64,000 nt of DNA, taken from Escherichia phage nataliec. The stretch is taken from the sequence record MN850611.1. One strand, given 5' to 3'. The translations under genes and the position numbers were made by a program. Each line of letters opens with the position of its first letter. The stretch's first letter is position 1. The notes below the pieces were generated by a model. That model was not told where the DNA came from. It saw nothing but the letters and a program-made list of their open reading frames with translations, and did not search any database. Positions 2,874 to 3,181 of this stretch are shown here, piece after piece.

Positions 2874-2955
2874 CGGGGCGTATCTCAGCGGTCTTCTAAA
2901 CCGCCGTTAACCGAGTAAGTGGAGTATGCGGGTTCGAGTCCTGCCGCCTCGACCA
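2874..2955 (+). tRNA. non-canonical tRNA-like gene, best anticodon arm gives TCT (Arg); D-arm region only 7 nt, 23-nt extra region before T-arm
   Basis: acceptor cggggcg/cgcctcg, perfect anticodon arm gcggt-cttctaa-accgc, T-arm gcggg-ttcgagt-cctgc, CCA. Confidence 0.45.
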
Positions 2956-3098
2956 ATTTAGTTAGCAGATTACTTAGACGACCTAAGCGGGTCTTCCTGT
3001 AGGGAGGTGGTCTGTATCTCATGTTTTCCAGAACATGTAAATAATCTGAGAAGGGGCTTTACAGTGTTGAGATAATACGGTAAGCTTCGAATTATAGT

Positions 3099-3181
3099 AT
3101 GGGACGATGTTAAGACTCTAAGGCATGAGCAACGGCCTCCAAAACCGTTTCAAAGGGGTTCAACTCCTCCGTCCCATGCCA
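3099..3181 (+). tRNA. tRNA, probable Trp (CCA) with enlarged D region
   Basis: acceptor atgggac/gtcccat perfect, anticodon loop ctccaaa in 4-5 bp stem, T-loop ttcaact, CCA; 26 nt between acceptor and anticodon stem. Confidence 0.45.

What the first reader, a model, noticed from the sequence alone, without database searches (positions are those of the whole stretch)
2874..3181. Two non-canonical tRNA-like genes (TCT and CCA anticodons) with aberrant D regions
The gene at 2874-2955 has perfect acceptor, anticodon (gcggt-cttctaa-accgc) and T arms, but only 7 nt where the D-arm should be and an extra 23 nt before the T-arm. The gene at 3099-3181 has a perfect acceptor stem and a CCA anticodon loop (the only candidate tRNA-Trp), but 26 nt between acceptor and anticodon stem. 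These may be structurally unusual functional tRNAs, D-armless tRNAs or pseudogenes; my hand folds may also be wrong.
Basis: seen in the sequence. Interest (0 to 1): 0.45.

Follow-up and report, generated by a model that had tools for sequence, protein, structure and literature searches.

The report
Rewired phage arginine tRNA, odd tryptophan tRNA
Both oddly shaped tRNA-like genes are real and conserved; the first belongs to a widespread, phage-only class of arginine tRNAs in which the D-loop and the anticodon arm have swapped places around the D-stem, an architecture I found described nowhere.

Summary
The window is a Felix O1-like phage (Felixounavirus) with a tRNA array. Both observations are confirmed at the stated coordinates.

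Element 1 (2874-2955) is not a pseudogene. It has over 60 distinct relatives in unrelated phages: T5-like, rV5/phi92-like, jumbo, Streptomyces, Vibrio and uncultured. All carry Arg anticodons. Acceptor, anticodon and T stems covary heavily.

The 3 nt after U8-A9-U10 pair with 3 nt inside the "extra 23 nt". This helix is 100% paired in 61 sequences, with 9 compensatory triplet combinations. So a D-stem exists, but it encloses the anticodon arm. The D-loop-like AAYUGGAGUAU follows it.

A canonical tRNA-Arg(UCU) occupies the same slot in sister phages. AGA is the phage's most used Arg codon. Best reading: a functional tRNA-Arg(UCU) with rewired core connectivity. Expression and charging are untested.

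Element 2 (3099-3181) is an Ounavirinae-specific tRNA-Trp(CCA)-like gene. It has about 9 extra, invariant nt between the acceptor and a 3-bp D-stem. Compensatory changes occur in all four stems, but only 13 distinct sequences are available.

In passing: 2676-2872 is a tmRNA-like tag-coding element (ANDNVFLAVA) found in about 600 phage records.

The parts
2874..2955 (+). Element 1: complete rewired tRNA-Arg(UCU) gene with encoded CCA (2953-2955) and discriminator A2952
   Evidence: Sequence. Rfam tRNA 31.7 bits. Family model R1 97 bits. 61-sequence alignment A1.
2874..2880 (+). Element 1 acceptor 5' strand CGGGGCG. It pairs with 2945-2951 (CGCCUCG), including G3.U70.
   Evidence: All 7 pairs carry double changes across 61 sequences, 99.1% of cells paired. 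G3.U70 is present in 7 of 61 members.
2881..2883 (+). U8 A9 U10, invariant connector
   Evidence: Invariant in 61 of 61 sequences.
2884..2886 (+). Helix H 5' strand (CUC), the rewired D-stem. It pairs with 2913-2915.
   Evidence: 100% paired in 61 sequences, 3 of 3 pairs with double changes and none one-sided. 9 triplet combinations. Slid controls give 13-42% paired.
2888..2904 (+). Anticodon arm GCGGU-CUUCUAA-ACCGC; anticodon UCU at 2895-2897
   Evidence: All 5 pairs have double changes. U33 and A37 are 61/61. Anticodons are TCT 57, CCT 2, ACG 1, TCG 1.
2905..2912 (+). 8-nt linker or bulge CGUUAACC (family consensus C-R-U-Y-A-A-N-N) between the anticodon stem and the helix H 3' strand
   Evidence: C, U, A, A positions are invariant in A1. 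Its role is unknown. That it substitutes for variable-loop contacts is my inference.
2913..2915 (+). Helix H 3' strand (GAG)
2916..2927 (+). D-loop-like segment UAAGUGGAGUAU (U-A-A-N-U-G-G-A-G-U-A-U). GG is taken as the G18G19 equivalent and the following A as the A20 equivalent.
   Evidence: Nearly invariant in 61 sequences. It resembles the D loop of the canonical allele, AACUGGACA. A20 is the main ArgRS determinant (PMC9976931). The positional equivalence is inferred.
2928..2944 (+). T arm GCGGG-UUCGAGU-CCUGC
   Evidence: 99% of cells paired, 3 pairs with double changes.
3099..3181 (+). Element 2: tRNA-Trp(CCA)-like gene with discriminator G3178 and encoded CCA (3179-3181)
   Evidence: Sequence. 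13 distinct homologs in four Ounavirinae groups. RNAalifold predicts a cloverleaf.
3099..3106 (+). Element 2 acceptor 5' strand AUGGGAC (+G3106). It pairs with 3171-3177 (+C3170), so the arrangement is 7/5 or 8/4.
   Evidence: Pairs 1-72 and 2-71 covary. G3106-C3170 is invariant, so it is untestable.
3107..3115 (+). Extra connector AUGUUAAGA, where a canonical tRNA has 2 nt
   Evidence: Invariant except one U-to-C change in 13 sequences, including Pectobacterium phage Arno162 at about 76% overall identity.
3116..3129 (+). Element 2 D arm: CUC / UAAGGCAU / GAG
   Evidence: The middle pair is U-A in 8 sequences and A-U in 5. All cells are paired.
3131..3149 (+). Element 2 anticodon arm AACGG-CCUCCAAAA-CCGUU. 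Anticodon CCA at 3139-3141, U33 at 3138, C3136.A3144 mismatch closing a 7-nt loop.
   Evidence: 4 of 5 pairs have double changes. U33, CCA and A37 are invariant while positions 32 and 38 vary.
3155..3169 (+). Element 2 T arm GGGG-UUCAACU-CCUC
   Evidence: The outer pair is G-C in 11 sequences and U-A in 2.
2641..2669 (+). Sigma-70-like promoter TTGACA-17-TATAGT. It probably drives the transcript that carries the tmRNA-like leader and element 1.
   Evidence: 11 of 12 consensus positions match. Function is inferred only.

Best explanation
Element 1 is a functional phage tRNA-Arg(UCU) of a widespread, phage-restricted class with changed core connectivity.

Shown by covariation:
- The order of parts is: acceptor 5' strand, U8-A9-U10, three nt (helix H 5' strand), one nt, anticodon arm, 8-nt linker, helix H 3' strand, a D-loop-like AAYUGGAGUAU, T arm, acceptor 3' strand.
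- Helix H therefore encloses the anticodon arm instead of the D loop.

Inferred:
- H stacks on the anticodon stem to give a 10-layer arm, as D-stem + position 26 + anticodon stem do in a normal tRNA.
- The relocated GG contacts the T loop.
- The A after GG serves as A20 for ArgRS, together with C35, U36 and A/G73.
- The molecule forms an L shape, is charged with Arg, and reads AGA, the phage's commonest Arg codon and a rare one in E. coli.

Speculative: phages keep this scaffold next to, or instead of, a canonical allele because it escapes host nucleases that recognise or cut the D loop or variable loop.

Element 2 is most likely the phage's tRNA-Trp(CCA). It is an otherwise cloverleaf-shaped tRNA carrying a conserved 9-nt insertion between the acceptor stem and a 3-bp D stem.
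For: Element 1:
- 61 distinct relatives have 98% of stem cells paired and 18 of 20 pairs with double changes. 0 of 500 shuffles reach the observed values.
- Helix H is 100% paired, with CUC/GAG, CGC/GCG, CAG/CUG, CAC/GUG, CAU/AUG, CGG/CCG, CUU/AAG, UCC/GGA and CGU/ACG. Slid controls give 13-42%.
- All anticodons are Arg (TCT 57, CCT 2, ACG 1, TCG 1). U33 and A37 are 61/61. The discriminator is a purine in 58 of 61.
- These features match the bacterial Arg identity set of A20, C35, U/G36 and A/G73 (PMC9976931).
- The family model separates members (54-99 bits) from all other tRNAs (39 bits or less).
- A canonical 77-nt tRNA-Arg(TCT) sits in the same slot with identical flanks in sister phages. 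About 128 records carry the rewired allele and about 121-138 the canonical one.
- Both forms lie in tandem in L038.
- AGA is 38.5% of Arg codons in window ORFs, and no other tRNA-Arg(UCU) is present.
- Members lie in phage tRNA arrays.
- A scan of 185,579 species' genomes gave only 4 true members, all on MAG contigs with tRNA arrays.

Element 2:
- 99.2% of cells are paired, 8 pairs have double changes, and slid controls show none.
- RNAalifold independently returns a cloverleaf.
- U33, CCA, A37 and G73 are invariant. G73 and the anticodon are the Trp determinants.
- It is conserved across Felixounavirus, Suspvirus, Mooglevirus and Arno162-like phages.
Against: - There is no direct evidence of transcription, processing, CCA status, aminoacylation or ribosomal use for either element.
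- ARAGORN rejects both.
- The single-sequence folding energy of element 1 is no better than shuffles, z = -0.23.
- The 3D equivalences (flipped D-stem, A20, Levitt pair) are inference. They involve invariant positions, so covariation cannot test them.
- The window's element 1 carries G3.U70 and A73, the AlaRS determinants, so its charging identity is not certain.
- The anti-nuclease advantage is untested.
- Element 2 rests on only 13 distinct, closely related sequences.
- Element 2 has three conserved A.C or C.A mismatches (10.25, 31.39, 49.65) and lacks U8.
- In Arno162 the element 2 acceptor stem needs a bulge.
Confidence: 0.66

Rival explanations
1. Both are decaying tRNA pseudogenes, relics of D-arm deletions or insertions, with no function.
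For: ARAGORN misses both. Rfam scores are marginal or sub-threshold. Some GenBank records label element 1 tRNA-OTHER or undetermined. A few single isolates carry stem mismatches in element 2, namely REP8 and L103.
Against: Element 1: 98% of cells paired with massive compensatory change in all four helices, an invariant core, and only Arg anticodons across very distant phages. Element 2: compensatory changes in four stems, and an insertion more conserved than the stems.
Confidence: 0.04
2. Element 1 is a tRNA mimic not used for decoding. It could be a decoy or sponge for a host tRNA-targeting nuclease or modification enzyme, or a regulatory or processing element of the tRNA operon.
For: The core is non-canonical. 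It coexists in tandem with a canonical tRNA-Arg(UCU) in L038 and alternates with a canonical allele. tRNA-targeting defences that cut D loops or variable loops are reported (PMC12916289; PMC13096335 abstract).
Against: A decoy would not need an invariant U33 and A37, exclusively Arg anticodons of four kinds, a purine discriminator, and a perfect acceptor/T minihelix with CCA. In this phage it is the only tRNA able to read the most used Arg codon.
Confidence: 0.15
3. In the Felix O1, T5-like and jumbo coliphage subgroup, element 1 is charged (also) with alanine through G3.U70 and A73. It could then act with the tmRNA-like tag-coding element that ends 2 nt upstream (2872 against 2874), or recode AGA.
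For: G3.U70 with A73 in the window. G.U at 3.70 is kept in 4 different acceptor stems while pairs 1-72 and 2-71 change. G3.U70 confers alanine acceptance on other tRNAs (PMC9976931). The tag-coding element lies directly upstream.
Against: Only 7 of 61 family members have G3.U70. Sister phages keep the same tmRNA-like element in front of a canonical tRNA-Arg without G3.U70. In other phages the element precedes tRNA-Ser or tRNA-Leu. T5-like and jumbo copies lack the upstream element.
Confidence: 0.05
4. Element 2 is not an ordinary Trp decoder. It could be a specialised tRNA-Trp variant (for example UGA-reading or regulatory) or a tRNA-like RNA with another role.
For: The D region of tRNA-Trp is known to influence UGA reading (Hirsh suppressor, my own knowledge). 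tRNA-Trp(CCA) variants with altered anticodon stems read UGA (PMC13092985). Element 2 has a C31.A39 mismatch and an abnormal D region. 8 of 43 long ORFs in the window end in TGA.
Against: The reported UGA-reading variants unpair the top pair (27-43), which is intact here. Nothing in the window points to recoding.
Confidence: 0.1

Closest known systems
Canonical bacterial or phage tRNA-Arg(UCU), for example the 77-nt allele at the same locus in Escherichia phage VpaE1_ev108, Suspvirus PC79-13 and Mooglevirus Maleficent
   Same: Same genomic slot with identical flanks. Same anticodon loop CUUCUAA, 7-bp acceptor, 5-bp T arm, purine discriminator, encoded CCA, and a UGGA motif (G18 G19 A20).
   Different: In element 1 the D loop and the anticodon arm have exchanged positions relative to the D-stem. 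There is no 4-5-nt variable loop, and an 8-nt linker is added. Standard tRNA finders fail or give undetermined calls.
D-armless mitochondrial tRNAs, for example mt-tRNA-Ser(AGY) (review PMC7609411)
   Same: Only a short connector lies between the acceptor and anticodon stems.
   Different: Those tRNAs lose the D-stem and the G18G19/T-loop contacts, and they are organellar and shortened. Element 1 is longer than normal, keeps a covarying D-stem-like helix and the GG motif, and occurs in phages of bacteria.
Class II tRNAs (Leu, Ser, bacterial Tyr) and tRNA-Sec, with long variable arms
   Same: Extra nucleotides lie between the anticodon stem and the T arm. Rfam aligns the extra 20 nt of element 1 as a variable-region insertion.
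   Different: The extra segment does not form its own hairpin. It pairs with the 5' connector instead, and no normal D arm is present.
8/4 and 9/3 'allo-tRNAs' (Mukai et al., NAR 2017, PMC5389517)
   Same: Element 2 can be drawn with an 8-bp acceptor and a 4-bp T stem, a 12-bp branch, as RNAalifold does. Allo-tRNAs were also found in metagenomes.
   Different: Allo-tRNAs have long variable arms and Ser-type identity. Element 2 has a 5-nt variable loop, a Trp anticodon with G73, and a 9-nt insertion before the D stem. The eighth pair is invariant, so it is unproven.
Circularly permuted tRNA genes (Cyanidioschyzon) and two-piece (permuted) tmRNA (own knowledge; tmRNA forms in PMC11915505)
   Same: Both are natural precedents for tRNA-type folds built with altered strand connectivity.
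   Different: In those cases the whole gene is circularly permuted and is processed into a normal or two-piece molecule. Here the termini are normal and only the internal order (D loop versus anticodon arm) is changed, with no sign of processing.

Membership tests
Canonical tRNA (Rfam RF00005) | 7-bp acceptor stem, discriminator, 3' CCA | tested here: met
   Element 1: 7 of 7 pairs, A73, CCA, all pairs covary. Element 2: 7 pairs (or 8), G73, CCA.
Canonical tRNA (Rfam RF00005) | 5-bp anticodon stem with 7-nt loop, U33 and purine 37 | tested here: met
   Element 1: met, with U33 and A37 in 61/61. Element 2: 5 contiguous pairs with a 9-nt loop, or a 7-nt loop closed by C.A. U33, CCA and A37 are invariant.
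Canonical tRNA (Rfam RF00005) | T arm: 5-bp stem and 7-nt UUCRANY loop | tested here: met
   Element 1: GCGGG-UUCGAGU-CCUGC, 99% of cells paired. Element 2: 4 pairs plus A.C, loop UUCAACU.
Canonical tRNA (Rfam RF00005) | D hairpin (stem closing the D loop) between nt 9 and 26, two nt after the acceptor stem | tested here: not met
   Element 1: the helix formed by nt 11-13 closes on nt 40-42 and encloses the anticodon arm. Rfam deletes the D arm. Element 2: the D hairpin is present but preceded by 11 nt instead of 2.
Canonical tRNA (Rfam RF00005) | Score at or above the curated gathering threshold (29 bits); detection by ARAGORN | tested here: inconclusive
   Element 1: 31.7 bits, just above threshold. 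Element 2: no RF00005 hit, only 23 bits to tRNA-Sec. ARAGORN detects neither.
Bacterial tRNA-Arg (ArgRS substrate) | Identity set A20, C35, U/G36, A/G73 (PMC9976931) | tested here: inconclusive
   C35 is 61/61, position 36 is U or G in 61/61, and the discriminator is a purine in 58 of 61. An invariant A follows the GG in the relocated loop. That it occupies the A20 pocket is inferred. Charging was not tested.
D-armless (mitochondrial type) tRNA | No D-stem helix; loss of G18G19/T-loop contacts; shortened molecule | tested here: not met
   Helix H is supported by covariation. UGG is invariant. Length is 79 nt without CCA.
Class II tRNA (long variable arm) | The extra region forms its own stem-loop between the anticodon and T arms, alongside a normal D arm | tested here: not met
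   RNAalifold finds no conserved pairing within the 23 nt. Three of those nt pair with nt 11-13.
8/4 allo-tRNA (PMC5389517), considered for element 2 | 8-bp acceptor plus 4-bp T stem; long variable arm | tested here: inconclusive
   An 8/4 arrangement is predicted, but the G8-C65 pair is invariant and so has no covariation. The long variable arm is absent (5 nt), so that feature is not met.
Bacterial tRNA-Trp (TrpRS substrate), element 2 | Discriminator G73, anticodon CCA, first base pair (PMC9976931) | tested here: met
   G73 and CCA are invariant. Pair 1-72 is A1-U72 in 8, G1.U72 in 4 and G1-C72 in 1 of 13 sequences. These are sequence features only. Charging was not tested.
tRNA pseudogene | Unconstrained decay: one-sided changes breaking stems, loss of anticodon-loop signature | tested here: not met
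   Element 1: 98% of cells paired, with 372 double-changed cells observed against 99 expected. Element 2: 99.2% paired.

The most novel reading that the evidence does not exclude
The rewired tRNA-Arg is a fully active translational tRNA. Its strand-swapped core (D loop and anticodon arm exchanged around the D-stem) still folds into an L shape. That would make it the first natural tRNA class with permuted internal connectivity. On this reading, phages maintain and exchange it as an allele alternative to the canonical gene because it is invisible to host antiphage tRNases or other enzymes that recognise the D loop or variable loop. Element 2 would be a second, independent solution of the same kind for tRNA-Trp.
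Probability: 0.3. Interest if true: 0.9.

Novelty: new variant of a known kind. Interest (0 to 1): 0.72.

Why it matters
- tRNA core architecture is among the most conserved folds in biology. Known exceptions (mitochondrial armless tRNAs, tRNA-Sec, allo-tRNAs) shorten or lengthen arms but keep their order.
- A covariation-supported class in which the D-stem encloses the anticodon arm would show that ArgRS, EF-Tu, RNase P and the ribosome tolerate a topologically different core.
- It would also offer a new orthogonal-tRNA chassis.
- It would explain why tRNA-Arg(UCU) and tRNA-Trp are reported as "missing" from many phage annotations, because standard finders skip these genes.
- The 50:50 allelic alternation with a canonical gene at one locus in Felix O1-like therapeutic phages makes the tRNA-based counter-defence idea directly testable.

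Tried and rejected
1. Canonical cloverleaf with other boundaries. ARAGORN and Rfam give none. ARAGORN's occasional 91-98-nt 'tRNA-Arg' calls in relatives use inconsistent upstream sequence.
2. Pairing of nt 11-13 with the second GAG (in UGGAGU). This is 84% paired only because CUC is common, and it fails wherever nt 11-13 vary. Rejected in favour of the first GAG.
3. A self-paired long variable arm. No conserved pairs.
4. Pairing of linker GUUA with UAAY. U36C variants are not compensated (inspection).
5. Extra pairs 14-39 (20% paired) and U10.U43 (never Watson-Crick).
6. Single-sequence folding energies are uninformative, z = -0.23 for element 1.
7. A mobile cassette made of the tRNA plus an HNH gene. 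The HNH genes downstream in Roth37 and Kamaji are 56% identical, but the Felix O1 gene is unrelated. I found no support for a shared cassette.
8. Element 2 relatives outside Ounavirinae. BLAST and three IMG/VR pattern scans (one with a mis-set spacer) gave only chance matches.
9. Element 2 connector pairing AUG/CAU. It is broken without compensation in PC79-13 and is out of register in Arno162.
10. Literature. Eight full-text searches and a 2020 review of non-canonical tRNAs (PMC7609411, which does not mention phage at all) gave no description of either structure.
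Full report
**1. Observation.**
- Element 1 (2874-2955) reads CGGGGCG UAUCUCA GCGGU-CUUCUAA-ACCGC CGUUAACCGAGUAAGUGGAGUAU GCGGG-UUCGAGU-CCUGC CGCCUCG A CCA.
- Element 2 (3099-3181) reads AUGGGAC, 26 nt, ACGGC-CUCCAAA-ACCGU UUCAA (A)GGGG-UUCAACU-CCUC(C) GUCCCAU G CCA.
- ARAGORN finds 24 tRNAs between 869 and 6213, all on the + strand, but neither element.
- Rfam's tRNA model hits element 1 at 31.7 bits (gathering 29). It does so only by deleting the D arm and inserting 20 nt in the variable region.
- Element 2 gets 23 bits against tRNA-Sec.
- The window holds no other Arg(TCT) or Trp tRNA.

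**2. Context.** The window is a Felix O1-like myovirus (Felixounavirus, Ounavirinae), at 99% identity to many records. Some GenBank records label element 1 'tRNA', 'tRNA-OTHER Nd_NNN' or nothing. Element 2 is never annotated as a tRNA.

**3. Element 1 belongs to a large phage family.**
- BLAST of the 95-nt region found 83-90% identical copies in unrelated phages:
  - T5-like Klebsiella and Serratia phages (Roth37, Sugarland, Kamaji)
  - Asteriusvirus and other jumbo phages (BF17, CMSTMSU, fENko-Kae01)
  - Mydovirus (KNP2)
  - phi92 and Justusliebigvirus
  - a Vequintavirinae phage (W70)
  - a Vibrio phage
- Two IMG/VR pattern scans raised the set to 61 distinct sequences. One of them is from a Streptomyces phage genome (L201).
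- The second scan did not constrain the anticodon, the 7-nt segment or the first half of the 23-nt segment.
- All 61 carry Arg anticodons: TCT 57, CCT 2, ACG 1, TCG 1. U33 and A37 are invariant. The discriminator is a purine in 58 of 61.
- On alignment A1, 98% of 1220 stem cells form standard pairs and 18 of 20 pairs show double changes. Double-changed cells number 372, against 99 ± 10 in shuffles, and slid controls fall to 37-48% paired.
- This excludes a pseudogene.

**4. The rewired D-stem.**
- The 7-nt segment is U8 A9 U10 N11 N12 N13 N14.
- N11-N13 pair with the three nt that precede an invariant UAA inside the long 3' segment.
- All 61 sequences are paired there. There are no one-sided changes, and nine triplet combinations occur: CUC/GAG, CGC/GCG, CAG/CUG, CAC/GUG, CAU/AUG, CGG/CCG, CUU/AAG, UCC/GGA and CGU/ACG.
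- A CCC/GGG combination also occurs in a MAG contig.
- Slid controls give 13-42% paired.
- Pairing with the second, invariant GAG fails exactly where N11-N13 vary.
- The secondary structure is therefore a three-way junction. The D-stem-like helix H encloses the anticodon arm, with 1 nt on the 5' side and an 8-nt C-R-U-Y-A-A-N-N bulge on the 3' side.
- After helix H comes U-A-A-Y-U-G-G-A-G-U-A-U, and then the T arm.
- Compared with a canonical tRNA-Arg, the D loop (A-R-Y-U-G-G-A-..-A) and the anticodon arm have exchanged places around the D-stem.

**5. Inferred three-dimensional reading.**
- The count U10.U43, three H pairs, the 14/39 layer and five anticodon-stem pairs gives 10 layers. That equals D-stem (4) + 26.44 + anticodon stem (5).
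- The chain leaving H towards the T arm carries the G18G19-like GG.
- It also carries an A in the position of A20, the main ArgRS determinant in bacteria (PMC9976931).
- An A...U pair in this chain could mimic the 15-48 Levitt pair.
- These positions are invariant, so covariation cannot test any of these equivalences.

**6. Evidence that element 1 is used.**
- In sister Ounavirinae the same slot, with identical flanks to within a few nt of each gene end, holds a canonical 74-77-nt tRNA-Arg(TCT).
- About 128 records carry the rewired allele at 90% identity or more. About 121-138 carry the canonical one.
- One uncultured phage (L038) has both in tandem.
- AGA is the commonest Arg codon in the window's long ORFs, at 38.5% of Arg or 16 per 1000 codons. 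It is rare in E. coli (established knowledge).
- Element 1 is the only gene in the window that could read AGA.
- Family members lie in or next to phage tRNA arrays.
- A pattern scan of one genome for each of 185,579 bacterial and archaeal species found only four true members, all on MAG contigs with tRNA arrays.

**7. Element 2.**
- Homologs exist only in Ounavirinae: Felixounavirus, Suspvirus, Mooglevirus and the Pectobacterium phages Arno162 and Wc4-1.
- Thirteen distinct sequences (A2) give 99.2% paired cells and 8 pairs with double changes. Slid controls show none.
- Where the changes fall:
  - four pairs in the anticodon stem
  - one in the D stem (U-A in 8, A-U in 5)
  - one in the T stem (G-C in 11, U-A in 2)
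  - two in the acceptor stem
- RNAalifold independently predicts a cloverleaf. It has an 8-bp acceptor, an 11-nt single-stranded connector, a 3-bp D stem with 8-nt loop UAAGGCAU, five anticodon-stem pairs, a 5-nt variable loop and a 4-bp T stem.
- U33, CCA, A37 and G73 are invariant, while positions 32 and 38 vary (C..A against U..C).
- The inserted AUGUUAAGA is more conserved than the stems.
- The related Erwinia phage Tian has a canonical tRNA-Trp, but in a different slot between Gly and Thr. Felixounavirus lacks it there.
- I read element 2 as the phage's tRNA-Trp with an expanded acceptor-D connector. Confidence is lower than for element 1 because diversity is small and three A.C or C.A mismatches are conserved.

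**8. Comparison with known kinds.**
- Neither element is a canonical RF00005-type tRNA in its D region.
- Element 1 is not D-armless in the mitochondrial sense, because the helix and the GG motif are retained.
- Element 1 is not class II, because the extra segment forms no hairpin of its own.
- Element 2 resembles 8/4 allo-tRNAs only in the possible 8/4 branch.
- Eight literature searches and the 2020 review of non-canonical tRNAs, which never mentions phages, gave no description of either structure.
- tRNA-targeting antiphage nucleases that cut D loops (type I-A retrons, cited in PMC12916289) or variable loops (Septu, PMC13096335 abstract) are reported. So is rescue by phage tRNAs (PMC10264068, PMC11555353).
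- Those reports motivate the untested idea that the rewired scaffold is an escape variant.

**9. Open points.**
- The window's element 1 has G3.U70 and A73, the AlaRS determinants. This occurs in 7 of 61 members, across four different acceptor stems.
- There are no expression or charging data.
- The role of the conserved 8-nt bulge is unknown.

**10. Side finding: a tmRNA-like element.**
- Window ~2676-2872 lies downstream of a strong promoter-like site and ends 2 nt before element 1, which starts at 2874.
- It encodes a tmRNA-type tag: GCA AAC GAC AAU GUU UUU CUG GCA GUA GCU UGA UAG, which reads ANDNVFLAVA.
- Frame, length and the ..LAVA or ..MAA ending are conserved in Klebsiella, Kuttervirus, G7C-like, Vibrio and Erwinia phages. 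The flanking stems covary.
- Rfam gives sub-threshold tmRNA hits of 16 and 29 bits.
- The element occurs in 611 phage records, almost always unannotated.
- I saw no tRNA-like domain inside the window's copy.

Noticed in passing
window 2676-2872 (+); tag frame 2719-2748, stops 2749-2754: A tmRNA-like mRNA-like element encoding ANDNVFLAVA**. Homologs in Klebsiella, Kuttervirus, G7C-like, Vibrio and Erwinia phages keep a 10-codon AN[DE]...LAVA or LMAA frame with covarying flanking stems. It occurs in 611 phage records, nearly all unannotated. Rfam tmRNA hits are below threshold (16 and 29 bits). No tRNA-like domain was seen within it, and a tRNA gene always follows on the same strand.
   Followed up: partly
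window 2874-2955 versus L265:344-420, L015:544-617, L016:543-618: Precise allelic alternation: rewired or canonical tRNA-Arg(TCT) in the same slot with identical flanks. About 128 records carry the rewired allele and about 121-138 the canonical one. Both lie in tandem in L038 (1522-1598 canonical, 1614-1692 rewired).
   Followed up: partly
window 2876 and 2949, 2952: Element 1 carries G3.U70 and A73, the AlaRS identity determinants. G.U at 3.70 is kept in four different acceptor stems of the coliphage and Klebsiella-phage subgroup, 7 of 61 members overall.
   Followed up: partly
window 1321-1392 (+): A third tRNA that Rfam calls (55 bits) but ARAGORN misses. It is Glu(UUC)-like, with A8 instead of U8, a 3-bp D stem, a C27.U43 mismatch, and apparently C rather than U at position 33.
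   Followed up: no
L266 (Felix O1) about 1396-1751; L005 498-889; L013 484-872: HNH endonuclease genes sit immediately downstream of the rewired tRNA-Arg in Felix O1, Roth37 and Kamaji. The two T5-like proteins are 56% identical and the Felix O1 one is unrelated. Some relatives of the window carry HNH or roughly 87-bp insertions within 2630-3540.
   Followed up: partly
IMG/VR loci, e.g. L047:1612-1702, L175:7758-7848, L219:4163-4256, L257:6269-6364 and 6372-6457, L059:5267-5355, L027:4627-4711: Phage tRNA arrays contain 83-96-nt tRNAs for Ile(UAU), Gln, Lys, Asn, Trp and Met. They have normal D arms but long variable arms, which is unusual for these isotypes.
   Followed up: no
L188:1336-1399 (also L258, L260, L261); L257:13348-13426: A 64-nt tRNA-like sequence with acceptor, D-like and T arms but no room for an anticodon arm recurs in four contigs. 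Separately, a divergent rewired tRNA-Arg(TCT) has a shorter linker and a longer D-loop-like segment (54.5 bits to R1).
   Followed up: no
window 2835-2868 and 3445-3539 (+): Long hairpins sharing a motif (…AGGGCUU(U)CUAAG…) lie just upstream of element 1 and of tRNA-Leu 3540. The second gives spurious plant-miRNA hits in Rfam (28 bits). They may be processing or termination signals of the tRNA operon.
   Followed up: no
window 3111-3116 and 3184-3189; 3067-3095: The element 2 connector UAAGAC is complementary to GUCUUA in its 3' trailer. A 5-nt version exists in Arno162, so this may be chance. A weak promoter-like site (9 of 12) ends 4 nt before element 2.
   Followed up: no
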